Assembly (NCBI GenBank): GCA_943787265.1
Contig: CALSLT010000044.1
Location: 1-64,000 of the forward strand
Source: an uncultured Planctomycetaceae bacterium
GTDB taxonomy: Bacteria > Planctomycetota > Planctomycetia > Planctomycetales > Planctomycetaceae
Reading direction: 5' to 3'
Length of the DNA stretch: 64,000 bases
The notes under the pieces are model-generated. The model was not told the origin of the DNA. It saw only the letters and a program-made list of their open reading frames with translations, and did not search any database. Numbering within the stretch: position 1 is the first letter of the stretch; each line of letters opens with the position of its first letter. Below, piece after piece: positions 19,567 to 62,015 of the stretch. The position numbers and the translations under genes were made by a program.

Positions 19567-19633
19567 AACTTCGCGTGATCGCATCGTTCGATCTGCCGCC
19601 AGGTGATCAAGTTGCGATTACACAACGACTACG

Positions 19634-19718
19634 GAAGTCATCCGGCTGGATGAGGGCTCTGTCTTGAAAACAGAGGCGGGTAAACGCCCGTTGTGGGTTC
19701 GAGGCCCACGGCTTCCGC
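19634..19718 (+). tRNA. tRNA-Ser(TGA), long variable arm
   Basis: 85 nt. Acceptor GGAAGTC/GGCTTCC, discriminator G, anticodon stem TCTGT/ACAGA, loop CTTGAAA, T-arm GTGGG-TTCGAGG-CCCAC. Confidence 0.8.
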
Positions 19719-19795
19719 CTCGGAAAGGCAGAAACCAGAAGACAGAAGGATGGATAGTTTTCAGCCTTCGGCCTTTTGATTTCAGCCTTTCACAC

Positions 19796-19868
19796 GGTCC
19801 TGTGGCCTAGCGGCGAAGGCAACTCCCTTACAAGGAGACAATCGGTGGTTCGAGTCCACCCAGGATCA
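19796..19868 (+). tRNA. tRNA-Val(TAC)
   Basis: Acceptor GGTCCTG/CAGGATC, anticodon arm ACTCC-CTTACAA-GGAGA (compare E. coli CCTCCCTTACAAGGAGG), T-arm GGTGG-TTCGAGT-CCACC. Confidence 0.75.
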
Positions 19869-19873
19869 CTTAG

Positions 19874-19943
19874 TCCCGAGTATGCCAATGGAAGAGCAGT
19901 CCGAATTGTCGGATGGTTGCAGGTTCGATTCCTGCCTCGGGGC
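19874..19943 (+). tRNA. tRNA-like gene, anticodon undetermined (degenerate)
   Basis: Good acceptor (TCCCGAG/CTCGGGG) and T-arm (GCAGG-TTCGATT-CCTGC). The anticodon arm folds only as GTCCG-AATTGT-CGGAT (6-nt loop) or with an 8-nt loop; the D-stem is unpaired. 70 nt. Confidence 0.35.
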
Positions 19944-19949
19944 CCACAC

Positions 19950-20022
19950 GGCACCGTAGCCCAACGGCAGAGGCAGTCGTTTCAAACGCAACAAAGTGTG
20001 AGTTCGAATCTCACCGGTGCCA
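19950..20022 (+). tRNA. class-I (short variable arm) tRNA with Leu anticodon CAA
   Basis: Acceptor GGCACCG/CGGTGCC, D-arm GCCC-AACGGCAG-AGGC, anticodon stem GTCGT/GCAAC (one C.A mismatch), loop TTCAAAC, variable AAAGT only, T-arm GTGAG-TTCGAAT-CTCAC. Confidence 0.5.
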
Positions 20023-20039
20023 TTCAAAACTTACAACAC

Positions 20040-20114
20040 GCCCCTGCAGAGCAGCCAGGAGTGCTCGCCATCCTGTCACGATGGAGACCGTCGGTTCGAA
20101 TCCGATCGGGGGTG
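20040..20114 (+). tRNA. tRNA-Asp(GTC)
   Basis: D-stem GAGC/GCTC, anticodon stem CCATC/GATGG, loop CTGTCAC, discriminator G, T-arm GTCGG-TTCGAAT-CCGAT. Confidence 0.8.
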
Positions 20115-20191
20115 CTTGTGAAAGGCGGAAGGATGAGGGCAGAAGGATGATTTGAATTCAGCCTTCATCCTTCTGACGTCAGCCTTCATAC

Positions 20192-20263
20192 GACGCGGTA
20201 GCCCAATGCAGAGGCAACCGGTTTAAGCCCGGTCAAGTGCGGGTTCGAGTCCCGCTCGCGTCA
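20192..20263 (+). tRNA. class-I (short variable arm) tRNA with Leu anticodon TAA
   Basis: Acceptor GACGCGG/TCGCGTC, D-arm GCCC-AATGCAG-AGGC, perfect anticodon stem ACCGG/CCGGT, loop TTTAAGC, variable CAAGT, T-arm GCGGG-TTCGAGT-CCCGC. Confidence 0.55.
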
Positions 20264-20280
20264 CTCGAAGAAATCATTGC

Positions 20281-20352
20281 GGCCCATTCGTCTAGTGGAG
20301 AGGACACCTGGTTTTCATCCAGGCAACGGGAGTTCGATTCTCCCATGGGTCA
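20281..20352 (+). tRNA. tRNA-Glu(TTC)
   Basis: TTCGTCTAGTGGAGAGGACACC D-arm as in E. coli tRNA-Glu; anticodon stem CCTGG/CCAGG, loop TTTTCAT; T-arm GGGAG-TTCGATT-CTCCC. Confidence 0.8.
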
Positions 20353-20367
20353 CTTTCGAAAATACAC

Positions 20368-20441
20368 AGCATCGTAGCCCAATTGGCAGAGGCGCCTGGT
20401 TTAGGTCCAGGAGGTTGAGAGTTCGAATCTCTCCGGTGCTA
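20368..20441 (+). tRNA. class-I (short variable arm) tRNA with Leu anticodon TAG
   Basis: Acceptor AGCATCG/CGGTGCT, D-arm GCCC-AATTGGCAG-AGGC, anticodon stem CCTGG/CCAGG, loop TTTAGGT, variable AGGTT, T-arm GAGAG-TTCGAAT-CTCTC. Confidence 0.55.
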
Positions 20442-20524
20442 CTTGAGTCAAAAGATGAGAGACCAGAGGCCAGAGGTTTTGCAGCATTCACGCTGGTCTC
20501 TGGTCTCTCGACTCTGAACTCAAT

Positions 20525-20610
20525 GGGCTTTGCTCCTCACGGCGGTCTGTAAAACCGTTGTCGGAAAACAAGTGAGGTGGTGACGAGAGGTTCAATTCCT
20601 TCAAGGCCCA
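20525..20610 (+). pseudogene. tRNA-Tyr(GTA)-like gene lacking a D-arm (aberrant or pseudo-tRNA)
   Basis: Acceptor GGGCTTT/AAGGCCC, discriminator A; anticodon stem GCGGT/ACCGT, loop CTGTAAA; long extra region; T-loop TTCAATT. Only 10 nt lie between acceptor and anticodon stem, so no D-arm can form. Confidence 0.4.
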
Positions 20611-20627
20611 ATCCAGAACGAAATCAC

Positions 20628-20710
20628 GGCCAGGTGGTGGAACGGTAGACACGCGACGCTCAGAACGTCGTGCCGCTTAAGGCATGGGAGTTCGAATCTC
20701 CCCCTGGTCA
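20628..20710 (+). tRNA. tRNA-Leu(CAG), canonical class II
   Basis: 83 nt. Acceptor GGCCAGG/CCTGGTC, discriminator A, GGTGGTGGAACGGTAGACACGC D-arm, anticodon stem CGACG/CGTCG, loop CTCAGAA, long variable arm, T-arm GGGAG-TTCGAAT-CTCCC. Confidence 0.85.
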
Positions 20711-20905
20711 TTAAAGAGTTGAAAGTAAATAGTTGATTGCTGATAGCAACTGCGAACATAGATGTCAGCAGCCGACTCCATCTCTCAACTATCGACTTTC
20801 AACCATCTACTTAATGCAGGTGTGGCAGGTGCCCAGTTGGCTCTCATAAGGCCGACCTCCCCGGATCGTTACCGGGACCTGCGACTTGCAATTTCTGATC
20901 AACAT

Positions 20906-20974
20906 CGCGGGTGGGCGAGTGCTCATCGGGGCCTCATAAGCCTCGACGGCCAGGTGCGACTCCTGGACCCGCTT
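20906..20974 (+). pseudogene. initiator tRNA-fMet(CAT)-like gene with truncated D-loop
   Basis: 5' CGCGGGTGG as in E. coli tRNA-fMet; C1 unpaired with position 72; anticodon stem GGGGC/GCCTC with three G:C pairs at 29-31:39-41; loop CTCATAA. T-arm CCAGG-TGCGACT-CCTGG has G at position 55. Only 69 nt; the D-arm is about 4-5 nt short. Confidence 0.4.
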
Positions 20975-20986
20975 CTTTCGCAACAC

Positions 20987-21062
20987 GGCCGAGTACGCAA
21001 TCAGGCAAAGCGGCGAGGTCGAGAGCCTCGTGATTTTGTGGGTTCGACTCCCACCTCGGTCA
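20987..21062 (+). tRNA. class-I tRNA-like with Leu anticodon GAG
   Basis: Acceptor GGCCGAG/CTCGGTC, anticodon stem CGAGG/CCTCG, loop TCGAGAG (C at position 33), T-arm GTGGG-TTCGACT-CCCAC. D-arm irregular. 76 nt. Confidence 0.4.
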
Positions 21063-21151
21063 CTTTGAGTTGAGAGTGGATTGTTCAGAGTCCGGAGGCT
21101 TTTCCTAAGCGGTACCTCTGGACTCTCGTCTCTCAACTCTGGTCTCAACCC

Positions 21152-21223
21152 GACTCCGTGGTCCAACGGCAACGACACCTGCGTGACATGCAGGAGACGA
21201 TGGTTCAACTCCATCCGGGGTCA
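21152..21223 (+). tRNA. tRNA-Val(GAC)
   Basis: Acceptor GACTCCG/CGGGGTC, anticodon stem CCTGC/GCAGG, loop GTGACAT, T-arm GATGG-TTCAACT-CCATC. Confidence 0.75.
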
Positions 21224-21234
21224 TTCCATTTGCC

Positions 21235-21313
21235 ATTAGTTATTTGTCATTTCTCATCGGTCATTGGGAGCCTGTTTACCGGGCAATGACAATTGAGAAA
21301 TGACAAATAACTA
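21235..21313. repeat. AT-rich 31-bp near-perfect inverted repeat (21-bp perfect core) with 17-bp loop
   Basis: TTAGTTATTTGTCATTTCTCA(TCGGTCATTG) ... (CAATGACAAT)TGAGAAATGACAAATAACTAA. About 25% GC in a 55% GC background. Confidence 0.8.
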
Positions 21314-21327
21314 ATGACAAATACTCC

Positions 21328-21398
21328 GGGCTGCTCGTCTAATGGGAAGACGCTTGGCTTGCAACCAGGTAATCGGGGTTCGACTCCCCGGCGGTCCA
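21328..21398 (+). tRNA. tRNA-Ala(TGC)
   Basis: G3.U70 Ala identity pair; D-stem GTCT/AGAC; anticodon stem CTTGG/CCAGG, loop CTTGCAA; T-arm CGGGG-TTCGACT-CCCCG. Confidence 0.85.
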
Positions 21399-21408
21399 CT
21401 TGAAGAAG

Positions 21409-21479
21409 TGGGGTCATGGTCCAATGGGACGACTCCAGCATGGCATGCTGGCAATCCGGGTTCGATTCCCGGTGACTCC
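21409..21479 (+). tRNA. tRNA-Ala(GGC)
   Basis: G3.U70; anticodon stem CCAGC/GCTGG, loop ATGGCAT; T-arm CCGGG-TTCGATT-CCCGG. Confidence 0.8.
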
Positions 21480-21495
21480 ATTCTCAAATCGATAC

Positions 21496-21583
21496 GGAAG
21501 GTAGCCGGATACGGTTTGCCGGACCGCACTGCTAATGCGTGTGCCTGTCATGGGTCATGTGGGTTCGAATCCCATGCCTTCCG
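21496..21583 (+). tRNA. tRNA-Ser(GCT), long variable arm
   Basis: 88 nt. Acceptor GGAAGGT/GCCTTCC, discriminator G, D-stem CCGG/CCGG, anticodon loop CTGCTAA, T-arm GTGGG-TTCGAAT-CCCAT. Confidence 0.8.
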
Positions 21584-21602
21584 CTCTTTGCAACAACAAT
21601 CT

Positions 21603-21674
21603 GGCTCGATGGTGAAACGGAGATCATCCCTTGCTTCTAACAAGGAGTTCCGGGTTCGATTCCTGGTCGGGCTA
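21603..21674 (+). tRNA. tRNA-Arg(TCT)
   Basis: D-stem GTGA/TCAT, perfect anticodon stem CCTTG/CAAGG, loop CTTCTAA, T-arm CCGGG-TTCGATT-CCTGG. Confidence 0.8.
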
Positions 21675-21689
21675 CTGGAGGAAAATGAA

Positions 21690-22157
21690 ATGAACTCAAC
21701 ATCTCATGTCATCGATAGTTTTGCCGGCGAGTACCGGTTTCTGTCGAACTTCTATCCGTCAACGATTTTCGTAGACGGATTCAGATATCCGACGGTCGAG
21801 CACGCGTTCCAGGCAGCGAAGACTGCTGACAGCGCTGCGAAACAGAAAATCGCAACAGTTCAATCGGCACTCCGAGCCAAGAGTCTCGGTCGTCAAGTAC
21901 GACTGAGAAAGGACTGGGAAGCGGTTAAGGTTGCCGTGATGAGGCAGTTTGTGACTCTGAAATTTGAGTCGCATCCCGATCTGGCAGAAATGCTGCTTGA
22001 TACGGGCGACGCGAAGCTCATTGAAGGCAACAGTTGGAATGATACCTACTGGGGCGTCTGCGGAGGTCGCGGAAAGAATCACCTCGGCAAAATTCTGATG
22101 GGAATCAGAACTCAGCTTCTGGTAACGAATCGTGAAACGACAGGGAGTATCGGCTAA
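21690..22157 (+). CDS. NADAR (DUF1768 / YbiA-like) domain protein
   Basis: GGAGG 8 nt upstream of ATG 21690. FAGEYRFLSNFYPSTIFVDGFRYPTVEHAFQAAKT ... WNDTYWGVCGGRGKNHLGKILMGIRTQL matches the NADAR consensus. The ORF-track N-terminus (21342) overlaps tRNAs and is rejected. Confidence 0.85.
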   Translation: MNSTSHVIDSFAGEYRFLSNFYPSTIFVDGFRYPTVEHAFQAAKTADSAAKQKIATVQSALRAKSLGRQVRLRKDWEAVKVAVMRQFVTLKFESHPDLAEMLLDTGDAKLIEGNSWNDTYWGVCGGRGKNHLGKILMGIRTQLLVTNRETTGSIG

Positions 22158-22173
22158 GCCCGCTGCTCCGACG

Positions 22174-22264
22174 GAAGGGCAACCCGATGGGCGACGGGAT
22201 CCGGTTGGAAGCCGGGCGAGTGCGTTAACGCGTGCCTTGCGGGTTCGATTCCCGCTCCTTCCGC
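22174..22264 (+). tRNA. tRNA-Ser(GGA), long variable arm
   Basis: 91 nt. Acceptor GGAAGGG/TCCTTCC, discriminator G, anticodon stem TCCGG/CCGGG, loop TTGGAAG, T-arm GCGGG-TTCGATT-CCCGC. Confidence 0.8.
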
Positions 22265-22280
22265 TGCGTGTGAGGATCCA

Positions 22281-22877
22281 ATGACTGCTTATCGACAAGT
22301 TCGAGCGAACTACGACCGGGCATCGATTGTCGTCTACCAGGCGTACAACGATGCGATTGCCGATTCAGCAATCGATGCACAGAAGTTTGTGGCTCCGTTT
22401 TCATTCAACCGAATGACCTGGATCAAGTCGTCGTTTCTGTGGCTGATGGAACGGAGCGGCTGGGCGACGAAGGCGAATCAAACTCGGATTCTGGCCATCC
22501 GAATCAGTCGGTCAGGATGGGAGCGGGCATTGTCGCAAGGAGTGTTGACGTCTTTCGAACCTAGCGTGCATCGCTCGGTCGACGCGTGGAGACTGCAGTT
22601 CGAAGCCTCGCCGGTTCACGTTCAATGGGATCCGGAAAGGTCGATTCACGGCAGGAAACTGGAGCATCGAGCGATTCAAGTCGGTATCAGCCGGCAGCTC
22701 ATCGAGGAATACGTGTCGTCGTGGATTCAGAGCATCGAAGACATGACCCAATTTGCAAACAAGGTCAGGCGAATGCGCATGGCTGGTAAACACTCTGAAG
22801 CTCGTCGGCTGCTTCCGATCGAACGGGAATACTCCGTTCAATCTGAAACCCGACGACAACTCGGAATTTCTAAATGA
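22281..22877 (+). CDS. DUF4291-like hypothetical protein (198 aa)
   Basis: GAGGAT RBS. The motif FSFNRMTWIKSSFLWLMERSGWATK resembles DUF4291-family proteins; this assignment is from memory and tentative. Confidence 0.6.
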   Translation: MTAYRQVRANYDRASIVVYQAYNDAIADSAIDAQKFVAPFSFNRMTWIKSSFLWLMERSGWATKANQTRILAIRISRSGWERALSQGVLTSFEPSVHRSVDAWRLQFEASPVHVQWDPERSIHGRKLEHRAIQVGISRQLIEEYVSSWIQSIEDMTQFANKVRRMRMAGKHSEARRLLPIEREYSVQSETRRQLGISK

Positions 22878-22971
22878 CTGACAGACTCAACCGGTCAAAC
22901 GTCCAGTCTGGAAAACCTGACGTTCGAAGTGCAACGCGTTTGCACGCAACTGGCATGAAAGGAGCTCGACG

Positions 22972-23751
22972 ATGATCACAACAAGAACTACAGACCTGCG
23001 TCGGCTCAACAGTGCGACGAAGTATCCGTCGATTGCGACGTATCACGCACTCGGAGAGAAGGGGCGGTTATTGCCAGACCATGTTGACTTGGGTGACCAG
23101 CCGTTGGTGTTGACTGAAAAAGTCGACGGTACCAATAGTCGAATTATCCTCATGCCGGACGGTGCTTACCTGATCGGGAGTCGTGAAGAGTTGCTCCACG
23201 CAAAGGGCGATCTGATTCACAACCCGGCGATGGGTATCGTCGATGCTTTGAGATCGTTCGCTGACAGTCTGGTTGAGATACGAAGTCCGGCCCCGGATGT
23301 CATCACAACGATCTATGTTGAGACTTACGGCGGCAAGACGACGGCGGCTGCAAAGCAGTACACGGGCGAGCGTCGTATCGGGTTTCGCCTGTTCGACGTA
23401 AGCATCGTGCCGATTGGGCAGATCTATTCCACACCGGAACAGATTTCGGCCTGGCGTGAATCAGGTGGGCAGAGTTTCTTCTCTGAAACTCAACTGGCTG
23501 ACTTTGCAGCGGAATCAGGCGTTGAACTGACGCCTCGAATTCAGTGCGAAAGTCAGTTGCCGGTGTCAATTTCTGAAACGCATGAGTGGCTGAAGAGTCA
23601 TCTTCCAGCAACACAGGTTGCACTGGACGAGAAGGCTGGCGGTAAGCCGGAAGGCCTCGTCGTTCGTACGGTCGATCGAAAGCGAATCGCCAAGATTCGT
23701 TTCGAAGACTACGAGCGACACGACCGACGGACTTCGAAATCAGCGCGATAA
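22972..23751 (+). CDS. ATP-dependent RNA ligase, Rnl2-like nucleotidyltransferase family
   Basis: AAAGGAG RBS. Motif I KVDGTN (TEKVDGTNSRII), motif IV EGLVVR, motif V lysine (AKIRFEDY). The N-terminal KYPSIATY block is typical of RNA-ligase adenylyltransferases. Confidence 0.8.
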   Translation: MITTRTTDLRRLNSATKYPSIATYHALGEKGRLLPDHVDLGDQPLVLTEKVDGTNSRIILMPDGAYLIGSREELLHAKGDLIHNPAMGIVDALRSFADSLVEIRSPAPDVITTIYVETYGGKTTAAAKQYTGERRIGFRLFDVSIVPIGQIYSTPEQISAWRESGGQSFFSETQLADFAAESGVELTPRIQCESQLPVSISETHEWLKSHLPATQVALDEKAGGKPEGLVVRTVDRKRIAKIRFEDYERHDRRTSKSAR

Positions 23752-23814
23752 CTTGTCGCTCAATGTTTGTCAGAGATGTACGGTCGCCGTCCGTTGTGGC
23801 GGCGACCGATTTAT

Positions 23815-23889
23815 GGTGTCCGTAGTGTAAGGGTCTTGCACGCGACTCTGTGGAAGTCGAAGAGACGGGTTCAACTCCCGCCGGACACC
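23815..23889 (+). tRNA. tRNA-His(GTG) with encoded G-1
   Basis: G-1 and discriminator C73; D-stem GTGT/GCAC; anticodon stem CGACT/AGTCG, loop CTGTGGA; T-loop TTCAACT. Confidence 0.8.
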
Positions 23890-24001
23890 CTCCACCAAAC
23901 CGAGCGTTTGGATCGGATAGCCGTTGGCGTGCATTTTCAATAAGCACGCTGAATCGGCTTGATCGATCAAAGGCGAATTAACTAAGGGAAGGAATGGTTC
24001 G

Positions 24002-24598
24002 ATGGTGGCCTCTGTTCTGGAGAGACCGACGCTTGTGCTGAATCGCAACTGGCAGCCTGTTGGCGTTGCCACGGTTGCTAAGGCACTGACGAAGGTCTGG
24101 AACAAAACGGCTCGGATTGTCGATCCGGCCGACTATCAGCAGTACTCATGGGAGAACTGGTCAGAGCTGCGTCCTGAGGACGGTGATCTGTTTATTCAGA
24201 CGAACCGGTTTCAGCTGCGGGTTCCGGAAGTGGTCACGCTGACGAAGTACGACCGACTTCCAAAGAGCGCTGTGACCTTCAGTCGAAGAAACGTTTTTAA
24301 GCGTGACAAGTTCATGTGTCAGTACTGCGGTGCTCAACCGGGCAGCGAGGAACTGACGATTGACCACGTCCTGCCGCGTGCTCAGGGAGGAACGTCCACT
24401 TGGGCTAACTGCGTGCTGGCGTGCATCGACTGCAATTCGCGGAAGGCCGACCGAACTCCGGAGCAGGCTCGGATGCCGTTGCGGTCGACGCCGGTCCGTC
24501 CAAAGTGGAAACCGGTCTACGCGTCACGCGGAATTCGTATCGAAAGCTGGTCGCGGTTCATTAGCGAAAGCTACTGGAACGCCGAACTGGAGAAGTAG
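24002..24598 (+). CDS. HNH endonuclease family protein
   Basis: C-terminal CQYCG...HVLPRAQGG...NCVLACIDCNSRKADR HNH zinc-binding motif. Confidence 0.8.
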   Translation: MVASVLERPTLVLNRNWQPVGVATVAKALTKVWNKTARIVDPADYQQYSWENWSELRPEDGDLFIQTNRFQLRVPEVVTLTKYDRLPKSAVTFSRRNVFKRDKFMCQYCGAQPGSEELTIDHVLPRAQGGTSTWANCVLACIDCNSRKADRTPEQARMPLRSTPVRPKWKPVYASRGIRIESWSRFISESYWNAELEK

Positions 24599-24679
24599 CG
24601 AAGGGGACAAGGGGTGAGCGTCAAGGGGCGAGAGCATTTAGCTCTCGACTCTGGCCTCTCGTCTCTCGACCAGAAAACA

Positions 24680-24749
24680 CAGCGGTGTGCTCCTGGGAGA
24701 GCAGACAGATTCCAAACCTGTCTCACGGGGTTCGACTCCTCGCACCGTT
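24680..24749 (+). tRNA. tRNA-Trp(CCA), irregular
   Basis: Discriminator G; D-stem GCTC/GAGC; anticodon arm GACAG-(A)TTCCAAA(C)-CTGTC with an A.C closing pair; T-arm CGGGG-TTCGACT-CCTCG. 70 nt with a 1-nt connector and 3-nt variable loop. Confidence 0.5.
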
Positions 24750-24783
24750 GCTGCGGCATGGCCGCTTTGTTTTGAGATAATTG

Positions 24784-24857
24784 CCGACGTGGCTCGATTC
24801 AGAAAGGCACCGGTCTTGTAAACCGGATGGATGTGGGTGCGAATCCCACCGTCGGCT
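24784..24857 (+). tRNA. tRNA-Thr(TGT)
   Basis: Perfect acceptor GCCGACG/CGTCGGC; anticodon stem CCGGT/ACCGG, loop CTTGTAA; T-loop TGCGAAT (G at position 55). Confidence 0.7.
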
Positions 24858-24861
24858 CTGA

Positions 24862-24933
24862 GCCCTGCGGGTGTGATGGATAGCATGGCAGTCTTCGAAA
24901 CTGTCGGACGAGGTTCGACTCCTCGGCGGGGTG
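24862..24933 (+). tRNA. tRNA-Arg(TCG)
   Basis: D-stem GTGT/GCAT; anticodon stem GCAGT/ACTGT, loop CTTCGAA; T-arm CGAGG-TTCGACT-CCTCG. Confidence 0.7.
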
Positions 24934-24936
24934 CTT

Positions 24937-25020
24937 GATGAACATCGAACATCCAACACTGAACGTCCAACATCGAATATTGGTATTCGATGTTCGTTGT
25001 TCGATGTTCAAAACGTCTTC
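24937..25020. repeat. GATGTTCGA-type repeat cluster (copy B, palindromic arrangement)
   Basis: TGAACATCGAACATCCAACACTGAACG ... ATTCGATGTTCGTTGTTCGATGTTCA. Confidence 0.6.
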
Positions 25021-25024
25021 AGAG

Positions 25025-25097
25025 TGTGGCGGATTCGCACGCGACCCTGCGAAGGTCGAGGACCAGGTTCGACTCCTGGTGAGGACACTCTTTAGTC
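25025..25097 (+). tRNA. tRNA-Arg(GCG)
   Basis: D-stem GTGT/GCAC; anticodon stem CGACC/GGTCG, loop CTGCGAA; T-arm CCAGG-TTCGACT-CCTGG. Confidence 0.7.
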
Positions 25098-25173
25098 CAG
25101 AGTCGAGGGGCAAGAGTCCAGAGGATTACTCTGGACTCTCGTCCCTCAGCTCTCGACTCCACTGACACCGATG

Positions 25174-25245
25174 CTCGATGGTCGGGCGGCTGGCTGCAAC
25201 CCAGCTTTGAGTGAGTTCGATTCTCACCGGTGTCTCTTTCATGCT
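25174..25245 (+). tRNA. tRNA-Cys(GCA)
   Basis: Perfect acceptor GACACCG/CGGTGTC, discriminator T; D-stem GCTC/GGGC; anticodon stem GCTGG/CCAGC, loop CTGCAAC; T-arm GTGAG-TTCGATT-CTCAC. Confidence 0.8.
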
Positions 25246-25339
25246 TGACTTGATGTTGTCATGACCGGCGGCGCGATTGGCTCTTTGTCAGAAGTTGGCC
25301 AGGCGTGTTCCGTGAACGGGTTCTGAACGTGACAACATC

Positions 25340-25411
25340 GAAGTGGTCGCCCAACGGTAGGGCACCAGGTTGTTAACCTGGATGTTGCGGGTTCGATTCC
25401 CGTCCACGTCT
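25340..25411 (+). tRNA. tRNA-Asn(GTT), second copy
   Basis: D-stem GCCC/GGGC; anticodon stem CCAGG/CCTGG, loop TTGTTAA; T-arm GCGGG-TTCGATT-CCCGT. Acceptor has one A.G mismatch. Confidence 0.65.
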
Positions 25412-25866
25412 CTGGTGGAAAACCAGATACTGACCGGCGCGATAGCGTCACCATTGAGCCCACGGGAGATGATTGTTTACTGAATCGGCTGCCGGTGTGT
25501 TCATGCTTGGTTTGCTCATCGCGGCGAGAGCCGCGTGTGGCGATGCCAGTTTTGACAGACATCCGGCAGCAGCATGAGTGGCGTGCCATGCAGTGTGTGG
25601 ATACCGCATTCTCGATGGCGACTTGAGCTGGTGAATCAGGGAACTCCGCTGACGCGTTCATCGTGAAGGCGGACTGACCGACGACATCAGCAAGCGTCGC
25701 TAATTCCAGCTTGCTCAAGCATCACTCCGCGCGTCGAAGTGTGATTCGTAAACGATTCATCTCCCAACGGTTTCTTTCAAGGCAGAAGGCGAAAGGATGA
25801 AGGCGAAAAACGCTTGTCTTCATCCTTCTGCCTTCTGAATTCATCCTTTCACAAAGGCGGTGGCCC

Positions 25867-46030: not shown

Positions 46031-47002
46031 TCACATCTGAAGTGCAAAGCCGGCTTTTGTGAGAACTTCGAGTGGAGTGAGATAGTTGAGTCTCTTTCGA
46101 GGTCGATTGTTGAGCCGGTTCGTGACGTGTGCAAGGGCGTTGTGTGAGATGTCTCGGAAGTCGGTCTTCTTCGGGAAGTACTGACGCAGCAGGCCGTTGG
46201 TGTTTTCGTTTGTTGCTCGCTCGTTCGAGGAGTAGGCGTGTGCAAAGTAGATGGCGATCTGCAGACGCTTGCTCAGTTGTTCATGGCCGGAGAATTCCTT
46301 GCCGTTGTCGACGGTCAGTGTCTGACGCAGCGTTGGCGGGATGATGCGGAACGCTCGTTCTTTGGCAGCGTTCAGCCGGGCGCTGGTGCCGTTTTTCATC
46401 TTTGCTGTGATCAAAAATCCGCTCTTGCGTTCCACACAGGTCATGATCATGCCGGAGTGATCTGCACCGTGAACCGTGTCGCCCTCCCAGTCACCGAAGC
46501 GGCGGCGTGAATCGACTTTTGCCGGACGCTGCTCGATGCTGACGCGGTTTCTGATGCGGCCTCGTCCGTCAATGCCCCGACGTTTGCGATAACGACCGTG
46601 ACGCAGGAACGAGCGGAAATGGCTGCGGTATTCGCAGGTCTCCAGCCAGCGGTAGATCGTCTGATACGACACTCGTCTCGATTGTGTCCGGCGGTAATCT
46701 CGCTTCATCCGGCCAGCGATTTCTTCCGGTGACCACTCCTGAGACAATCCGCTACGGACTGACTCGTTGATGAAAGGATCGTCCATCTTCCGGATGAGCG
46801 GACGCTCGCGACGACGTCGGGCAGTTCGTTCCTGAGCGGCCACGGCTCGATAGCCTTCCGAATCCCTGTTGCGAGACAGTTCGCGACTGATGGTCGACGG
46901 AGAACGATTCAAGTGCTGAGCGATCTTTGTCGGACCAGTGCCCGAATAATGTAACTGAGAGATGACTTCGCGTTCTTCAAGAGTAAGCTGGTGGTACGGC
47001 AT
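46031..47002 (-). CDS. IS30 family transposase
   Basis: Start at Met (cat at 47000-47002) MPYHQLTLEEREVISQLHYSGTGPTKIAQHLNRSPSTISRELSRN (HTH), followed by a DDE integrase core. Confidence 0.85.
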   Translation of the reverse strand: MPYHQLTLEEREVISQLHYSGTGPTKIAQHLNRSPSTISRELSRNRDSEGYRAVAAQERTARRRRERPLIRKMDDPFINESVRSGLSQEWSPEEIAGRMKRDYRRTQSRRVSYQTIYRWLETCEYRSHFRSFLRHGRYRKRRGIDGRGRIRNRVSIEQRPAKVDSRRRFGDWEGDTVHGADHSGMIMTCVERKSGFLITAKMKNGTSARLNAAKERAFRIIPPTLRQTLTVDNGKEFSGHEQLSKRLQIAIYFAHAYSSNERATNENTNGLLRQYFPKKTDFRDISHNALAHVTNRLNNRPRKRLNYLTPLEVLTKAGFALQM

Positions 47003-47199
47003 CGCAGGTTCTCCGTTGAATAGTGCATTGTTCGCACAACTATCCAACTCCCTGCGGTGTTCACTTTCCAGCAGTAAACCGCCTCGAAGCCCATCCCGTC
47101 CGAACCAGAGCTGAGTTCTGATCCGTTGCACTTCAGATGCGGTAGCCCATGACTGGTGGACACCTGAAGGATTTCTAAGATTTCTTTCAGGAGACTTTC

Positions 47200-47505
47200 A
47201 TGTCAGAGAAAACGAAGCGAGCACGTCGTTCATTCAGTGCTGAATTTAAGCGGGACGCCGTCGATCTTGTGGTCAAGCAGGGGTACTCGTTCAAGGCGGC
47301 AGCGGACGCTGTTGGTGTTGCAGCGAAGAGTCTCAGGGATTGGCACTCGAAGCTGGCTCCAGAGCCAGAACCATGTGGTGACGACGCCTCGACCGCTGCG
47401 TTGCAGGATGAGATCAAGCATCTCAGAAAGCGTCTGCAGCGAGCTGAAATGGAACGTGAAATTCTAAAAAAAGCCACAGCGTATTTCGCGAGGGAGTCAC
47501 AATGA
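47200..47505 (+). CDS. IS3 family transposase OrfA (HTH)
   Basis: MSEKTKRARRSFSAEFKRDAVDLV is the typical IS3 OrfA. Confidence 0.85.
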   Translation: MSEKTKRARRSFSAEFKRDAVDLVVKQGYSFKAAADAVGVAAKSLRDWHSKLAPEPEPCGDDASTAALQDEIKHLRKRLQRAEMEREILKKATAYFARESQ

Positions 47506-48386
47506 AATACGCATGGATCAAGCAGCATCGTGACTCGTTTTCAGTGACGTCGATGTGTCGAACTCTCAATGTCAGCTCGAGTGGATTCTACAGGTGGCTG
47601 AAGGCCGGGCCCGGCTTGAGGGCTCAACGGTCGGCTCGAATCCGCACTTCAATTAAGCAGGTCTACGACGAGTCGCACGGGATTTATGGCAGTTACAAAA
47701 TCGCTGATCGACTCAAGGAAGATGACTCTCTGGAAACAGTCTGTCGCAACACAGTCGCAGCGGCGATGCGGGAAATGGGACTGAAAAGCAAAGTCTCAAA
47801 GAAATTTTCGCCAACGACAACGGTTTCTGATCCTTCAAAGATGGCGGCACCAAACGTTCTGAATCAGTCCTTCAAAGCAGGTGCTCCGAACAGAAAGTGG
47901 GTGACCGATATCACGTATCTGCCGACGGCAACCGGCTGGGTTTATCTGGCTGTTGTCCTGGACTTGTTCAGTCGCAAGGTTGTCGGTTGGGCGATTTCCG
48001 AAAGTCTCGCCACGCCGTTGGTCAGCTCAGCTCTTCGTAACGCTGTTGAATCGCGGAAGCCTGACACGAACGGTCTGCTTCACCACAGCGATCGAGGCTC
48101 GCAATACACCAGCGATGAATACCAGCAGACTCTGAGAACACTCAACATGATCTGCTCGATGAGTCGTACCGGATGCTGCTACGACAACGCCGTCATGGAA
48201 CGTTTCTTCTGGTCACTCAAGCACGAATGGACGAAGTTCGAAACCTTCGAGGACATCACTCAAGCAAGACTCAGCGTCTTCCAGTACATCGAAACGTTCT
48301 ACAACTCCAAGAGAATTCATCAGACCCTCGGATACAAAACACCTGACGAATTCGAAGAACAACACCAAGCAAAGCTTGCCGTCTAA
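47502..48386 (+). CDS. IS3 family transposase OrfB (DDE integrase core)
   Basis: rve-type DDE domain (HHSDRGSQYTS...). Produced with OrfA by -1 frameshifting at AAAAAAAG. Confidence 0.85.
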   Translation: MKYAWIKQHRDSFSVTSMCRTLNVSSSGFYRWLKAGPGLRAQRSARIRTSIKQVYDESHGIYGSYKIADRLKEDDSLETVCRNTVAAAMREMGLKSKVSKKFSPTTTVSDPSKMAAPNVLNQSFKAGAPNRKWVTDITYLPTATGWVYLAVVLDLFSRKVVGWAISESLATPLVSSALRNAVESRKPDTNGLLHHSDRGSQYTSDEYQQTLRTLNMICSMSRTGCCYDNAVMERFFWSLKHEWTKFETFEDITQARLSVFQYIETFYNSKRIHQTLGYKTPDEFEEQHQAKLAV

Positions 48387-58504: not shown

Positions 58505-59953
58505 ATGAACCCGTTGACTCAACGAATTCAAAATCTGACCAGACGCCACTTTCTGCGAGACTCGAACATCGCGTTGGGAGGCATGGCTCTGTCTGCGATG
58601 GCTGGCAATAGTGCGAGTGCACGGCCGAAAGTCATCAACCCGCTAGAGCCGAAGAAGACTCATCACGAGCCCAAGGCCAAGCGAGTCATCTATCTGCACA
58701 TGACTGGTTCGCCGCCGAACCTTGACCTCTGGGATTACAAGCCGGAACTCATCAAACGCACCGACGAAGATTGCCCGAGTGAGTTTCTGGAAGGTCGCCG
58801 ATTTGCATTCACGTCGGGCGTGCCAAAGTTACTCGGAACACCTCGTAAGTTTCCACAGGTCGGAAAAGCGGGGCTGCGAATGTCCGACGCCGTTCCGAAT
58901 TTGCACAAAGTCGCCGATGAAATGTGTCTGGTTCATTCGATGAACACGGACCAGTTCAATCATGCTCCGGCCGAACTTCTGATTTACACCGGTTCGCCAC
59001 GGTCAGGCCGGCCTTCGATGGGGGCGTGGGCGACGTACGGACTTGGTTCGGAAAACGAAGACTTGCCAGGTTTCGTCGTCCTGATCTCCAGCGGCGTTCA
59101 ACCTAACGGCGGAAAGAACTCGTTCGGTAGCGGATTCCTTCCCAGCGTTTATCAAGGTGTGCAGTGTCGCTCCAAGGGCGACCCCGTTCTTTACGCATCC
59201 GATCCGAAAGGCATGGACCGTGAGATGCGAAGACTGAGTCTCGATGCACTCCGAGACCTCAACGAAGCGCAGGCCGATAAGCTGGGACACCCGGAAACGC
59301 TCACCAGGATCGCGCAGTACGAGCTTGCCTATCGAATGCAGGTTTCAGTTCCCGAAGTCATGGACATCACCAAAGAACCGAAGCACGTTCTCGATGCTTA
59401 CGGTGCAGAGCCCGGTGCTTCCAGCCTGGCCAATAACTGCCTGCTCGCTCGACGACTGGTTGAGCAAGGCGTGCGTTTCGTGCAGCTCTTCGACTGGGGC
59501 TGGGACTTCCACGGCACCGGTGCCGGTACCGGGCTCACATCAGGCTTGACCAACAAGTGCGCGACGATGGACAAACCTGTCGCGGCGCTGATCGCCGATC
59601 TCAAACAACGAGGCATGCTGGAAGACACACTGATCGTCTGGGGGGGCGAATTTGGTCGCACTCCATTCCGCGAAGGACGCACAGCCAAAGGCAAAGTGCT
59701 TGGCAGAGACCACTACCCTGATTGCTTCACAATGTGGATGGCCGGTGGTGGAGTCAAAGGTGGCTACGAGTACGGTCAGACCGACGAACTCGGTTTCGGA
59801 GTTGTGGAAAACAAAGTCCACATTCACGACCTCCAGGCAACCATCATGCACTTGCTCGGCCTGAACCACGAAAAAACGACTTTCCGCTTCCAGGGCCGAG
59901 ACTACCGCCTGACCGACGTCCACGGCGACGTCGTCCACGACCTGATTGCGTGA
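58505..59953 (+). CDS. DUF1501 domain protein, TAT signal
   Basis: RRHFLRDSNIALGGMALSAMAG TAT motif; DUF1501 blocks. Confidence 0.85.
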   Translation: MNPLTQRIQNLTRRHFLRDSNIALGGMALSAMAGNSASARPKVINPLEPKKTHHEPKAKRVIYLHMTGSPPNLDLWDYKPELIKRTDEDCPSEFLEGRRFAFTSGVPKLLGTPRKFPQVGKAGLRMSDAVPNLHKVADEMCLVHSMNTDQFNHAPAELLIYTGSPRSGRPSMGAWATYGLGSENEDLPGFVVLISSGVQPNGGKNSFGSGFLPSVYQGVQCRSKGDPVLYASDPKGMDREMRRLSLDALRDLNEAQADKLGHPETLTRIAQYELAYRMQVSVPEVMDITKEPKHVLDAYGAEPGASSLANNCLLARRLVEQGVRFVQLFDWGWDFHGTGAGTGLTSGLTNKCATMDKPVAALIADLKQRGMLEDTLIVWGGEFGRTPFREGRTAKGKVLGRDHYPDCFTMWMAGGGVKGGYEYGQTDELGFGVVENKVHIHDLQATIMHLLGLNHEKTTFRFQGRDYRLTDVHGDVVHDLIA

Positions 59954-60040: not shown

Positions 60041-60604
60041 TCAGTTTTTGTCAGCGGCATTCGATTCAACGCTGTGACGGATGGCTTTGATCATGGCCTC
60101 ATTCGACGGATGGTCGGCCGAGTTGCGTGCGTAGTGCGCGAACTGGACGACTCCGGCTGAATCAATCACAAAGGCTCCAGGCATTTGCATTGGATCCCCG
60201 ACGGGTATTCCGCCTCCGTGACTTAGTAGTGCCTTGAAACTTTGTTTCCAGACGGACGTGCCAGCAATTTCGCGGATCGACCCTTTTTCAAGTCCGAATG
60301 CCTGATACGCAATTCGGTCCGGATCCGAGAAGCACTCAAACGGCAGGTCCAGTCGTCGTCGGAACGCGGACGTCTGGTCAGGATTACCCATTGTCACCAC
60401 TGCGACAGCTCCACCAGCGTCGCTGAACTTTGCGTAACTTCTCCGCACGTCGACCACGTGCTCTCGGCAGGTCGGTCAGCCAAAATGTCGAACAAAGAAT
60501 AGTGCAACGGGCCTGGACTTCCAGAAGTCTGAAACACTGACCGGTATTCCTGCCAGAGTGCGAACGTCCGGTGACGGAGCGACGTCGCCTGTTGCAAGAT
60601 TCAT
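60041..60604 (-). CDS. candidate selenoprotein: Prx-like (AhpC/TSA-type) thiol-disulfide oxidoreductase with in-frame TGA (Sec) at 60476-60478
   Basis: The 72-aa and 138-aa ORFs are in the same frame, separated only by TGA. Joined sequence: MNLATGDVAPSPDVRTLAGIPVSVSDFWKSRPVALFFVRHFG-U-PTCREH..., so the TGA sits at the redox-active position of a UxxC motif. Hairpin GCACGUGGUCGACGUGC lies 14 nt downstream of the UGA. Confidence 0.6.
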
Positions 60605-60767
60605 CGTGATTTCTTTCTGTCGTAAGCAGATAGCGGAATGGATATCTTTCGCTGAGTTGCTTCGCTTCGTCAACTGTCGAAGTAATGGCTGCACTTGAAA
60701 TTGTCATCCCGGACAAGCAAAACGCCGGGGGAAAACTGCCGATTCACAAGGACGACGTCAGCAGGTC

Positions 60768-62015
60768 ATGTCACTGAAAGTCGATCAGGTTTATCGGTAC
60801 TCGCAAGTGTCTTCTCTAAGGAGACATGGGACGACATCGCGTTTGCTGCTTTCTACTTCGGGCGGCACGGTGGACTTTCCGTACTTCTTCCAGGGAAGTC
60901 TTCGTCAGCCGCGCATGGCGGGAATGTTGCTGCGAAGCCTGATGACGATTGTGCAGTCACGGTTCTTTGTCCCTCCAAACATGCTCGCCCGGATTCTGGC
61001 ACTCGCTGATCCCGTCGTCACCTGCCATAAAGATCGTCTGCGGTTTGAAGGGTTCTCTGGATGTTGTGGAGTTTATGCGCGTGTTGATTTGTTGCCGGAG
61101 GCCATTGACGGCGACTTTTGTGGATTCGGGACGAGCAACGTCGACTTCAATCCGCCGATGATTCATGCGTTGACTCGACTGCGCGATCGGGACTCGGTGG
61201 AGCTCTCGGTCGGCGAGGATGAAGTTCGCCTGAAAACTGGTGAATCCTCTGTGGTTGAAAAAAAGGTCAAACTGCCAATTCGGTGGATCAAAGGGTTTGT
61301 GGAAACTCAGGCCGTCCTCAGTCGGATGGAGCTTCGGCACGAGCTGTCCGCTGTCGACGCCAATCGATTTCTGCGTTCGTTACCTCGCATGTCCACGCAT
61401 CGCCGCTCAACATGGATCGTGCCGAGCGGGCGGAGCATTCGACTTAGTCAACGTGAGGCGAGGGGAGCAGTGCGAGTGGGCGGCCTGGAACGGCTGCGTG
61501 TCCTGGAGCCTCTCTGTCCAGAGGCAAAGTCGCTTCGCATTTACGGAGACACCACGACGAGTGCTTCTGCCTGGGAACTTGACTTGGGAGACTGCCGGTT
61601 TCAATTGGCGTTGAGTCCGGAGGTTTGGAGAGGATTCTCGGGCGAGGGGCAGGTGCTGGAAGATCTGGCAGCCAGCGGAAGGGATCGATTGCTCGCTCGG
61701 GTTAAAGCTGAATTGAACTGGGCCTGGACGGTCGATCGTGTACGGCTCGCTCAACGAATTGGCTGCGACGAGAAACAGATCAATCAGGCACTATCAGTTC
61801 TGGGAACGCGAGGCCTGGTCGGTTTCGATCTGCACGAAAATTCCTGGTTTCACCGCGAGTTTCCCTTCGACCTCACAATAGTGGAGAAACTCCAGCCGCG
61901 TCTCGTTGATGCTCGGAAGCTGGTCGATGAGGGGGCCGTTCGGGACGCGCCTGCGGAGCGTGGTGAGTCAGACTTTTCGTCACAAGCGGTGACGTCGACC
62001 ATCGCGTTCGTCTGA
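60768..62015 (+). CDS. SWIM zinc-finger family protein (C-terminal SWIM domain in the -1 frame, to 62143)
   Basis: The SWIM domain (RCTCPWFAKHQGDRGPCKHVLAAQLY) is encoded in another frame over 61967-62143. The frames are joined at a T4 run (61974-61977). Confidence 0.7.
   Translation: MSLKVDQVYRYSQVSSLRRHGTTSRLLLSTSGGTVDFPYFFQGSLRQPRMAGMLLRSLMTIVQSRFFVPPNMLARILALADPVVTCHKDRLRFEGFSGCCGVYARVDLLPEAIDGDFCGFGTSNVDFNPPMIHALTRLRDRDSVELSVGEDEVRLKTGESSVVEKKVKLPIRWIKGFVETQAVLSRMELRHELSAVDANRFLRSLPRMSTHRRSTWIVPSGRSIRLSQREARGAVRVGGLERLRVLEPLCPEAKSLRIYGDTTTSASAWELDLGDCRFQLALSPEVWRGFSGEGQVLEDLAASGRDRLLARVKAELNWAWTVDRVRLAQRIGCDEKQINQALSVLGTRGLVGFDLHENSWFHREFPFDLTIVEKLQPRLVDARKLVDEGAVRDAPAERGESDFSSQAVTSTIAFV

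What the first reader, a model, noticed from the sequence alone, without database searches (positions are those of the whole stretch)
60041..60694. Probable selenoprotein: Prx-like redoxin with UGA at the catalytic Cys position and a downstream SECIS-like hairpin
ORFs 60476-60694 and 60041-60457 are in the same frame, separated only by TGA at 60476-60478. Read through, they give MNLATGDVAPS...VALFFVRHFG-U-PTCREH..., the N-terminal redox motif of AhpC/TSA-like redoxins, with Sec in place of the first Cys (U-x-x-C). A stable hairpin (GCACGUGGUCGACGUGC, with alternative CGACC...GGUCG pairing) begins about 14 nt 3' of the UGA, where bacterial SECIS elements lie. Prx-like thiol:disulfide oxidoreductases are a known bacterial selenoprotein family. 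A conventional caller would annotate two fragments.
Basis: partly seen in the sequence, partly recalled or inferred. Interest (0 to 1): 0.75.

Follow-up and report, generated by a model that had tools for sequence, protein, structure and literature searches.

The report
Selenocysteine redoxin gene, split by annotators
This is very probably a real selenoprotein gene, a thioredoxin-fold redox enzyme whose in-frame UGA codes for selenocysteine, but it belongs to a bacterial selenoprotein family known since about 2005-2008, so it is a sound annotation correction rather than a discovery.

Summary
On the minus strand one reading frame runs from ATG 60604 to the stop at 60041, broken only by TGA 60478-60476. 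Read through, it gives a 187-residue protein with the motif RHFG-U-PTC. This protein passes the curated cut-off of NCBIfam NF040769, 'SelL-related redox protein'.

- **TGA is conserved.** All 15 distinct truncated relatives I examined, from at least five phyla and 35-75% identical, carry TGA at this same codon. Both sides of it are under purifying selection.
- **It replaces a cysteine.** Full-length relatives have Cys there, as the first Cys of a CxxC motif.
- **The hairpin is real.** The 6-bp hairpin GCACGU-GGUCG-ACGUGC starts 14 nt after the UGA. It is kept in 11 Sec forms with three compensatory base-pair changes, is invariant at synonymous sites, and is absent at the same columns in Cys forms.

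- The start is ATG 60604, not GTG 60694.
- The hairpin's stability alone is unremarkable.
- The alternative CGACC/GGUCG pairing is not supported.
- U aligns with the N-terminal Cys of a thioredoxin-like CxxC (Cys44 of PRXL2B), not with the peroxidatic Cys of true peroxiredoxins.

The Sec machinery (selA, selB, selC, selD) is not in the window, and the rest of the genome could not be checked. Verdict: a new member of a known selenoprotein family.

The parts
60041..60604 (-). Complete selenoprotein coding sequence: 187 codons plus the terminal TGA, with Sec at codon 43. Product is a SelL-related / Prx-like UxxC redoxin.
   Evidence: frame; Pfam AhpC-TSA, residues 6-155; NCBIfam NF040769, 148.5 bits against a cut-off of 120, residues 9-174; start supported by homologues that have upstream stops.
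60602..60604 (-). Start codon ATG (MNLATGD...)
   Evidence: the Met is conserved in L005, L006, L009 and L059, and L005 and L006 have in-frame stops 9-14 codons upstream.
60476..60478 (-). In-frame UGA read as selenocysteine (U43)
   Evidence: TGA at the same codon in 15 distinct homologous loci. Cys at this column in full-length homologues.
60467..60478 (-). Redox motif U-P-T-C (U43...C46), preceded by the invariant R39-H40-x-G42
   Evidence: invariant columns R39, H40, G42, C/U43, C46; aligned with C44-V-V-C47 of PRXL2B.
60445..60461 (-). SECIS-like hairpin inside the coding sequence: stem GCACGU/ACGUGC (6 bp), loop GGUCG (60455-60451), starting 14 nt after the UGA
   Evidence: geometry, -8.1 kcal/mol; 97% paired, 3 compensatory pairs, 0/500 shuffles; Cys forms 41% paired; synonymous sites invariant.
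60176..60199 (-). Second family signature, G-D-P-M-Q-M-P-G (residues 136-143)
   Evidence: Q140 invariant; G136, D137 and G143 nearly invariant; aligned with GDLLQSGG of PRXL2B.
60041..60457 (-). The fragment that gene callers report (GTG start, 138 aa). It lacks the redox motif.
   Evidence: (P0001, 138 aa, is the only form of this protein in the public protein collection).

Best explanation
The minus-strand gene 60604..60041 encodes a cytoplasmic selenoprotein with a thioredoxin/peroxiredoxin-like fold, of the SelL-related ('Prx-like UxxC') family.

**Decoding.** During translation the UGA at 60478-60476 is decoded as selenocysteine. The hairpin 14 nt downstream (60461-60445, loop GGUCG) acts as a bacterial SECIS element. 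It recruits SelB carrying GTP and Sec-tRNA(Sec) to the ribosome, where it competes with release factor 2. The second UGA of the same mRNA (60043-60041) has no such element and terminates translation.

**Catalysis.** In the finished protein U43 is the exposed nucleophile of a U-x-x-C redox centre. It attacks an oxidised substrate, either a peroxide or a disulfide. C46 then resolves the intermediate into a selenenylsulfide, which a thioredoxin-type reductant reduces again.

**What is shown here:**
- the single open frame;
- family membership;
- the U-to-Cys correspondence;
- conservation of the TGA with coding constraint on both sides;
- covariation and synonymous-site constraint in the hairpin.

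**What is inferred:**
- SelB-dependent decoding (the machinery was not seen);
- the cytoplasmic location (no signal-peptide-like N-terminus in the sequence; not tested with a predictor);
- the catalytic cycle, the substrate and the reductant.
For: 1. **One frame, one domain.** Pfam AhpC-TSA covers residues 6-155 and NCBIfam NF040769 covers residues 9-174 at 148.5 bits against a cut-off of 120. Both span the TGA.
2. **The closest relatives are truncated at the same place.** All five closest database relatives are C-terminal fragments of 128-138 aa. Their DNA shows an in-frame TGA at the same codon, with a conserved N-terminal extension.
3. **The TGA is widespread.** Ten further loci bring the total to 15 of 15 distinct loci. 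They include Rubrobacteraceae, Chthonomonas, Anaerolineales and Thermoanaerobaculia genomes.
4. **Sec forms look common among the nearest relatives.** Of the 150 best representative clusters, 92 are short proteins that begin just after the motif. All 5 that I sampled have the TGA.
5. **Cys aligns with U.** Full-length homologues carry RH[FL]G-C-xx-C, with the first Cys aligned to U; the column is invariant in 25 sequences.
6. **Both halves are translated.** dN/dS is 0.10-0.37 for the 42 codons before the UGA and 0.07-0.23 after it.
7. **The hairpin covaries.** In 11 Sec forms 97% of cells pair, and three pairs show independent double changes (C-G to U-A, C-G to G-C, U-A to C-G). No shuffle of 500 reached this, and slid registers pair at 4.5-61%. 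The same columns in the 11 closest Cys forms pair at 41%.
8. **Synonymous sites are frozen.** The six stem-loop codons are identical at nucleotide level in five sequences, whereas 74% of other degenerate codons with a conserved amino acid vary. That is roughly P = 3e-4, ignoring relatedness.
9. **The code is not reassigned.** TGA is the ordinary stop of 13 of 22 window genes.
10. **Independent assemblies agree.** Four assemblies give an identical read-through protein with the TGA at the same codon.
11. **There is precedent.**
   - UxxC Prx-like selenoproteins are an established family (PMC2398784 Table 2; PMC13188914).
   - GOS reads with FHRHLG-U-PPCR are 32% identical to this protein.
   - Pirellula-type planctomycetes with complete selA/B/C/D and split AhpC/peroxiredoxin selenoprotein candidates are described in PMC4807772.
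12. **The catalytic residue matches.** U43 aligns with catalytic Cys44 of PRXL2B (PMC12938796).
Against: - No selA, selB, selD or tRNA-Sec was found in the 64-kb window or in any fetched locus, and the rest of this MAG could not be read. The organism's ability to decode Sec is therefore inferred, not shown.
- The hairpin is short. Its energy is unremarkable (z = 0.13), and a loose SECIS definition does not separate Sec forms from Cys forms.
- A stricter contiguous-hairpin definition is still met by 14 of 65 Cys forms.
- No Rfam family matches the region.
- Part of the nucleotide conservation in the stem overlaps a conserved peptide (EHVVDV).
- Four Sec forms lack a clean contiguous hairpin: L101, L103, L017 and L067.
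- No biochemical data exist for this subfamily.
Confidence: 0.9

Rival explanations
1. Pseudogene. The TGA is a nonsense mutation (TGC/TGT to TGA) that has inactivated a Cys-type redoxin gene.
For: TGA differs from the Cys codons TGC/TGT by one base. Gene callers report only a fragment. No Sec machinery was seen.
Against: - The same TGA occurs in 15 distinct loci from several phyla.
- The 42 codons upstream remain under purifying selection, with dN/dS 0.10-0.37.
- No further stops or frameshifts have accumulated in any of these loci.
- The downstream hairpin covaries.
Confidence: 0.02
2. The annotation is right. Translation starts at GTG 60457 and yields a 138-aa protein. The upstream ORF is either a separate small peptide or is not translated.
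For: A GTG start exists 6 codons after the TGA. Relatives also have a start codon shortly after the TGA, which is why they were called as 128-138-aa proteins.
Against: - The 138-aa piece lacks the invariant RHxG-(U/C)-xx-C centre and the first strand and helix of the fold.
- Both family profiles align across the TGA.
- The position and type of the downstream start codon are not conserved: ATG, GTG or TTG at varying offsets.
- The upstream 42 codons are conserved as protein.
Confidence: 0.02
3. The UGA is read through, but not as selenocysteine. Candidates are near-cognate Trp or Cys insertion, or another recoding mechanism stimulated by the hairpin.
For: - Downstream structures can stimulate stop-codon read-through in general.
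- Sec machinery was not observed here.
- A Cys at this position would be functional, as the Cys homologues show.
Against: - The family is a recognised selenoprotein family with the same UxxC motif (PMC2398784, PMC13188914).
- Two lineages with Sec forms have close relatives that decode Sec: Rubrobacter xylanophilus has 5 selenoproteins (PMC1794560), and Pirellula-type planctomycetes carry selA/B/C/D (PMC4807772). Selenoproteins are also reported in the phyla Chloroflexi and Acidobacteria.
- Hairpin position and loop fit bacterial SECIS rules as I recall them from Zhang and Gladyshev 2005: the loop starts 16-37 nt after the UGA, with a G among its first two bases.
- Maintaining an inefficient stop codon where TGC would serve is hard to explain otherwise.
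Confidence: 0.05
4. Sequencing or assembly error created the TGA.
For: None specific.
Against: An identical read-through protein, with the TGA at the same codon, appears in four independent assemblies from different samples (L001-L004). The same codon is TGA in 15 divergent relatives.
Confidence: 0.005

Closest known systems
NCBIfam NF040769, 'SelL-related redox protein' (bacterial subfamily of the AhpC/TSA-like superfamily)
   Same: The read-through protein scores 148.5 bits against a cut-off of 120 and covers 170 of the 173 profile positions. It shares the RH[FL]G-(C/U)-xx-C and GDxxQxxG signatures.
   Different: Nothing structural. This copy is simply not annotated as a selenoprotein: public collections hold only the 138-aa fragment.
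'Prx-like thiol:disulfide oxidoreductase' / 'Prx-like 1' bacterial selenoproteins (Zhang, Gladyshev and co-workers; PMC1794560, PMC2398784, PMC13188914)
   Same: Same Pfam domain (PF00578), a UxxC motif, and a SECIS inside the coding region just after the UGA. GOS selenoprotein reads with FHRHLG-U-PPCR are 32% identical, with U aligned.
   Different: 'Prx-like' in those papers is a broad label that covers several subfamilies. I could not compare this protein with the type sequence WP_010940744.1 from Geobacter.
Eukaryotic PRXL2 / selenoprotein U family, represented by PRXL2B (prostamide/prostaglandin F synthase, PDB 9us9)
   Same: This is the best solved-structure match for the family profile, over the full length (E = 7e-15). 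The CxxC motif (Cys44/Cys47) aligns with U43/C46, and the GDxxQxG motif also aligns. Cys44 is the nucleophile that reduces a peroxide (PMC12938796). Sec-containing SelU members exist in animals (PMC3473315).
   Different: The relationship is distant, at roughly 20-25% identity. Eukaryotic Sec forms use a 3'-UTR SECIS. A prostaglandin substrate is not expected in a planctomycete.
Selenoprotein L (SelL; Shchedrina et al. 2007 PNAS, cited in PMC3473315 and PMC2398784)
   Same: A Prx-like thioredoxin-fold selenoprotein with the redox motif at the same structural position. This is the relationship implied by the NCBIfam model's name. The published comparison is recalled from memory, not re-derived here.
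   Different: SelL has two Sec residues (UxxU), which form a diselenide. This protein has one Sec and one Cys (UxxC).
Canonical peroxiredoxins (BCP/AhpC) and the Prx selenoproteins (TxxU)
   Same: Same fold and the same Pfam family. The N-terminal halves align.
   Different: In peroxiredoxins the peroxidatic Cys, or Sec in TxxU forms, aligns with C46, and a conserved Thr sits where U43 is. The BCP equivalog model scores 29 bits against a cut-off of 140.

Membership tests
Bacterial selenoprotein gene (SelB/SECIS-dependent UGA decoding) | In-frame UGA inside a single conserved domain, aligned with Cys in homologues | tested here: met
   the column is invariant C/U in 25 sequences.
Bacterial selenoprotein gene (SelB/SECIS-dependent UGA decoding) | UGA conserved in orthologues, with coding constraint on both sides | tested here: met
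   TGA in 15 of 15 loci. dN/dS is 0.10-0.37 upstream and 0.07-0.23 downstream.
Bacterial selenoprotein gene (SelB/SECIS-dependent UGA decoding) | Stem-loop shortly 3' of the UGA. Criteria as I recall them from bSECISearch: the apical loop starts 16-37 nt after the UGA, with a G among its first two bases. | tested here: met
   The loop GGUCG starts after 20 nt, on a 6-bp stem. Covariation and a Cys-form control support it, as does synonymous-site constraint. Energy alone does not discriminate.
Bacterial selenoprotein gene (SelB/SECIS-dependent UGA decoding) | Genome encodes selA, selB, selD and tRNA-Sec | not testable with these tools
   None in the window or in fetched loci. The source MAG is not readable beyond the window and is absent from the genome collection that was scanned.
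Bacterial selenoprotein gene (SelB/SECIS-dependent UGA decoding) | Selenium actually incorporated at the UGA position | not testable with these tools
   Needs 75Se labelling or mass spectrometry.
NCBIfam NF040769, SelL-related redox protein | HMM score above the curated cut-off over the full profile | tested here: met
   148.5 bits against 120; profile positions 3-172 of 173 (query carried C in place of U).
Prx-like UxxC selenoprotein family (Zhang and Gladyshev) | PF00578-type domain with Sec as the first residue of a UxxC motif, and homology to published members | tested here: met
   (PF00578, E = 2e-18). GOS read JCVI_READ_1093012208814 is 32% identical (E = 2e-16) with U aligned. The type sequence from Geobacter was not compared.
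Canonical peroxiredoxin (BCP/AhpC) | PxxxTxxC active site with the peroxidatic Cys, and a score above the family cut-off | tested here: not met
   The Thr position is occupied by U43, and the peroxidatic Cys aligns with C46. The BCP equivalog scores 29 bits against a cut-off of 140.
Selenoprotein L (SelL) | UxxU motif (two Sec residues, forming a diselenide) | tested here: not met
   The motif is U-P-T-C, with a TGC codon at 60469-60467.
PRXL2 / SelU family | Full-length similarity, with CxxC and GDxxQxG aligned | tested here: inconclusive
   The profile against PDB gives E = 7e-15 to PRXL2B with both motifs aligned. This shows homology. Membership of the eukaryotic family was not resolved by phylogeny.

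The most novel reading that the evidence does not exclude
Within this SelL-related subfamily the Sec form may be the commoner state among the nearest relatives, not the rare exception. Ninety-two of the 150 closest representative clusters are fragments cut at the UGA.

The family also carries at least two different SECIS designs at different registers. One has a GGUCG/GUC loop starting about 20 nt after the UGA. The other has an AGUU loop starting about 25 nt after it.

That would point to repeated SECIS turnover, or to several independent Cys-to-Sec conversions, and to a large block of selenoproteins systematically missing from protein databases.
Probability: 0.45. Interest if true: 0.4.

Novelty: new member of a known kind. 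Interest (0 to 1): 0.3.

Why it matters
- **Annotation.** It corrects the record. The public collections hold only a 138-aa fragment that lacks the active site, so the organism's redox repertoire and its use of selenium are under-reported.
- **Biology of the organism.** It implies that this uncultured marine-type planctomycete decodes selenocysteine.
- **The wider family.** The same truncation affects most of the closest relatives across several phyla. A family-aware re-annotation would therefore recover many selenoproteins.
- **Limits.** It does not change what is known about Sec decoding or about this protein family.

Tried and rejected
2. **Structure prediction of the read-through protein.** I took the fold assignment from a profile search against solved structures.
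3. **Single-sequence folding of the 60 nt after the UGA.** The predicted structures differ between relatives, and the window's fold is not unusually stable.
4. **A loose bSECIS-like energy scan.** It does not separate Sec forms from Cys forms (means -11.6 and -9.7 kcal/mol), so I dropped it as evidence. A stricter contiguous-stem definition gives 12 of 16 Sec forms against 14 of 65 Cys forms.
It is 74.5% paired, which 298 of 500 shuffles also reach. Rejected.
6. **A codon-usage scan for further TGA-containing genes in the window.** It was uninformative, because the true gene itself ranked near the bottom.
7. **Motif scans for SelA, SelB and SelD, and ARAGORN for tRNA-Sec**, in the window and in all loci. 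Nothing was found.
8. **Rfam at a permissive threshold** over the SECIS region. Only noise.
9. **Promoter and terminator scan around the gene.** No sites.
10. **A possible 'fossil SECIS' in Rokubacteria/Methylomirabilota Cys forms.** The pairing is not conserved among them, so it is coincidental.
11. **Organism identification by exact protein look-up.** It returned only 'Planctomycetota bacterium' MAG relatives.

Full report
**1. The observation**

On the minus strand a single reading frame runs from ATG 60604-60602 to TGA 60043-60041. It contains one internal stop, TGA 60478-60476. The read-through product is 187 residues: MNLATGDVAPSPDVRTLAGIPVSVSDFWKSRPVALFFVRHFG-U-PTCREHVVDVRR...

The hairpin GCACGU-GGUCG-ACGUGC occupies 60461-60445. 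It starts after a 14-nt spacer.

Neither feature is unusual taken alone:
- The window holds at least 25 other TGA-joined ORF pairs.
- The 60 nt after the UGA fold no better than shuffled sequence (z = 0.13).

The case therefore rests on homology and comparison.

**2. What the protein is**

With Cys substituted for U, the product matches three Pfam models:

| Model | E-value | Residues matched |
|---|---|---|
| AhpC-TSA | 2e-18 | 6-155 |
| AhpC-TSA_2 | 9.9e-14 | 55-161 |
| Redoxin | 1.1e-12 | 12-109 |

It also passes the curated cut-off of NCBIfam NF040769, 'SelL-related redox protein'. The score is 148.5 bits against 120, over profile positions 3-172 of 173. The domain therefore spans the TGA.

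A 25-sequence family alignment has invariant R39, H40, G42, C/U43, C46 and Q140. F37, R47, D94, G136, D137, G143 and F145 are nearly invariant.

A profile of that alignment finds human PRXL2B (prostamide/prostaglandin F synthase, 9us9) as the best solved structure. The match covers the full length at E = 7e-15. Its Cys44-x-x-Cys47 aligns with U43...C46, and its GDLLQSGG aligns with GDPMQMPG. Cys44 is the residue proposed to attack the peroxide of the substrate (PMC12938796).

In true BCP-type peroxiredoxins the peroxidatic Cys aligns with C46, and their conserved Thr aligns with U43. The BCP equivalog model scores only 29 bits against a cut-off of 140. The protein is therefore a thioredoxin-like U-x-x-C oxidoreductase on a peroxiredoxin-like scaffold, not a peroxiredoxin proper.

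**3. Is the UGA a Sec codon?**

*Truncated relatives.* The five closest proteins in the 5.8-billion-sequence collection are all C-terminal fragments of 128-138 aa. The DNA upstream of each shows TGA at the same codon, preceded by a conserved in-frame N-terminal extension.

*More loci.* Scans of genomes and metagenomes, plus look-ups of further truncated representatives, raised this to 15 distinct loci, all with TGA. They are L005, L006, L009, L059, L100-L104, L029, L063, L067, L007, L017 and L026. Among them are a Rubrobacteraceae MAG, Chthonomonas sp. UBA2017, an Anaerolineales MAG and a Thermoanaerobaculia MAG.

*Cys forms.* About 65 distinct full-length homologues carry TGC or TGT at this codon, as the first Cys of CxxC.

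*Representative clusters.* In an exhaustive HMMER search of 1.84 billion cluster representatives, 92 of the best 150 hits are short proteins that begin just after the motif. All five that I sampled have the TGA.

*Selection.* Pairwise dN/dS among the five closest sequences is 0.10-0.37 for the 42 codons before the UGA and 0.07-0.23 after it. Both parts are translated as one protein.

*Genetic code.* TGA is the normal stop of 13 of 22 confident genes in the window, including this gene's own terminator. The code is not reassigned.

*Independent assemblies.* Four assemblies give an identical read-through protein with the TGA at the same codon. A sequencing error is excluded.

**4. The SECIS element**

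In the window's clade the stem-loop sits at the same codon-aligned position in 11 Sec forms (alignment A2).

- 97% of cells form standard pairs.
- Three of the six pairs show independent changes on both sides: C-G to U-A in L100, C-G to G-C in L029, and U-A to C-G in L102.
- No shuffle out of 500 reaches these values, and slid registers pair at only 4.5-61%.
- The same columns in the 11 closest Cys forms pair at 41%, no better than shuffles.

Among the five closest sequences, the six codons that make up the hairpin are identical at nucleotide level. By contrast, 74% of other degenerate codons with a conserved amino acid vary. That is roughly P = 3e-4, ignoring relatedness.

The loop (GGUCG, GUC, GUU or CGUGC) nearly always contains G-U. 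From memory, this recalls the GGUC loop of E. coli fdhF and its G23/U24 contacts with SelB.

More distant Sec forms (L007, L017, L026) have a different hairpin. It has an AGUU loop starting 25-26 nt after the UGA. L063 has a 7-bp stem with loop CGUGA starting 30 nt after the UGA.

Weak points:
- A loose SECIS definition does not separate Sec from Cys forms.
- 14 of 65 Cys forms meet a stricter one.
- Rfam has no match.

**5. Machinery and organism**

The window encodes PSCyt1/PSCyt2/PSD1, DUF1501, DUF1552 and related planctomycete-specific proteins. Exact-sequence look-ups place its proteins among 'Planctomycetota bacterium' MAG sequences on a 117.6-kb contig.

No selA, selB, selD or tRNA-Sec lies in the window or in any fetched locus. 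The rest of the genome could not be read, and its species is not in the genome collection that was scanned (best hit 43% identity).

Indirect support comes from the literature:
- Pirellula-type planctomycetes with complete selA/B/C/D, and with AhpC- and peroxiredoxin-type selenoprotein candidates annotated as two genes, are described in PMC4807772.
- Rubrobacter xylanophilus has five selenoproteins (PMC1794560).

**6. Gene context**

The gene stands alone. It lies between a convergent DUF1501 gene (58505-59953, +) and a divergent 415-aa gene with no recorded Pfam hit in the related loci (60768-62015, +). Relatives have other neighbours, such as sulfatase, DUF1501 or Mn-catalase genes. No conserved operon partner points to a reductant or a substrate. 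No sigma-70-like promoter or intrinsic terminator was detected.

**7. Comparison with what is known, and novelty**

UxxC 'Prx-like' selenoproteins have been catalogued since the Sargasso Sea and GOS analyses. The 'Prx-like 1' family (pfam00578, UxxC) had 225 Sec members in GOS (PMC2398784), and a 2026 review lists the family (PMC13188914).

The GOS supplementary sequences include reads with FHRHLG-U-PPCR and FHRHLG-U-LPCR. One of them is 32% identical to the window protein, with U aligned. NCBI maintains a dedicated model, NF040769.

This is therefore a new, unannotated member of a known selenoprotein family, working by the known bacterial Sec-decoding mechanism.

The mildly interesting extras are:
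- the high share of Sec forms among the nearest relatives, almost all truncated in databases;
- the two SECIS designs within one family.

**8. Verdict**

- The start codon is ATG 60604, not GTG 60694.
- 'Catalytic Cys' holds in the thioredoxin-like CxxC sense only, not as the peroxidatic Cys of a peroxiredoxin.
- The hairpin is supported by covariation, not by its stability.
- The Sec machinery remains unchecked.

Confidence that this is a Sec-decoded selenoprotein gene is about 0.9. Interest is 0.3.

Noticed in passing
window 17101-25412 (+): An array of about 40 tRNA genes in 8.3 kb, close to a full set. ARAGORN finds 40, but only 30 reach the Rfam gathering score. Two are odd: a 4-base anticodon 'tggg' at 17326-17402 and 'tt' at 19874-19946. 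The array includes a high-scoring tRNA-Ile(UAU) at 18008-18079. This matches the 'degenerate tRNA gene clusters' with a canonical tRNA-Ile(UAU) reported in planctomycete genomes (PMC4807772). It contains no tRNA-Sec.
   Followed up: partly
window 46031-47131 (-) and 47502-48386 (+): Two transposase/integrase-type genes lie next to each other. One has HTH_38 plus an rve core; the other has HTH_21 plus rve, rve_2 and rve_3. They look like insertion-sequence remnants.
   Followed up: no
proteins P0013-P0162; loci L100-L104: Of the 150 closest representative clusters of this family, 92 are entries of about 110-145 aa that start just after the redox motif. All 5 that I sampled have the in-frame TGA. 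One example is WP_273842972.1 of Rubrobacter calidifluminis, annotated as a 137-aa 'AhpC/TSA family protein'. This looks like systematic mis-annotation of Sec forms.
   Followed up: partly
L007:2546, L017:3127, L026:3106 (TGA positions): The more distant Sec forms, from Rubrobacteraceae, Chthonomonas and Anaerolineales, carry a different downstream hairpin from the window's clade. It has an AGUU loop starting 25-26 nt after the UGA, and the stems differ at many paired positions between them.
   Followed up: partly
window 60041-60043 (-): The selenoprotein gene's own terminator is also TGA. The same mRNA therefore carries one UGA read as Sec and one read as stop. TGA is the commonest stop in the window, used by 13 of 22 genes.
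   Followed up: yes
L045, L046, L084 and related Methylomirabilota/Rokubacteria loci: Some Cys-form homologues show a short hairpin at the same register as the window's SECIS, 14 nt after the Cys codon. The pairing is not kept among their close relatives, so it is probably a by-product of the codons for Q-Q-V-A-G-L and not a fossil SECIS.
   Followed up: yes
window 642-2045 (-): A 467-aa pyridine-nucleotide-disulfide oxidoreductase of the Pyr_redox_2 plus Pyr_redox_dim type (the domain pair typical of dihydrolipoamide dehydrogenase, glutathione reductase or thioredoxin-reductase-like enzymes) is encoded 58 kb away from the selenoprotein gene. No link between the two is evident.
   Followed up: no
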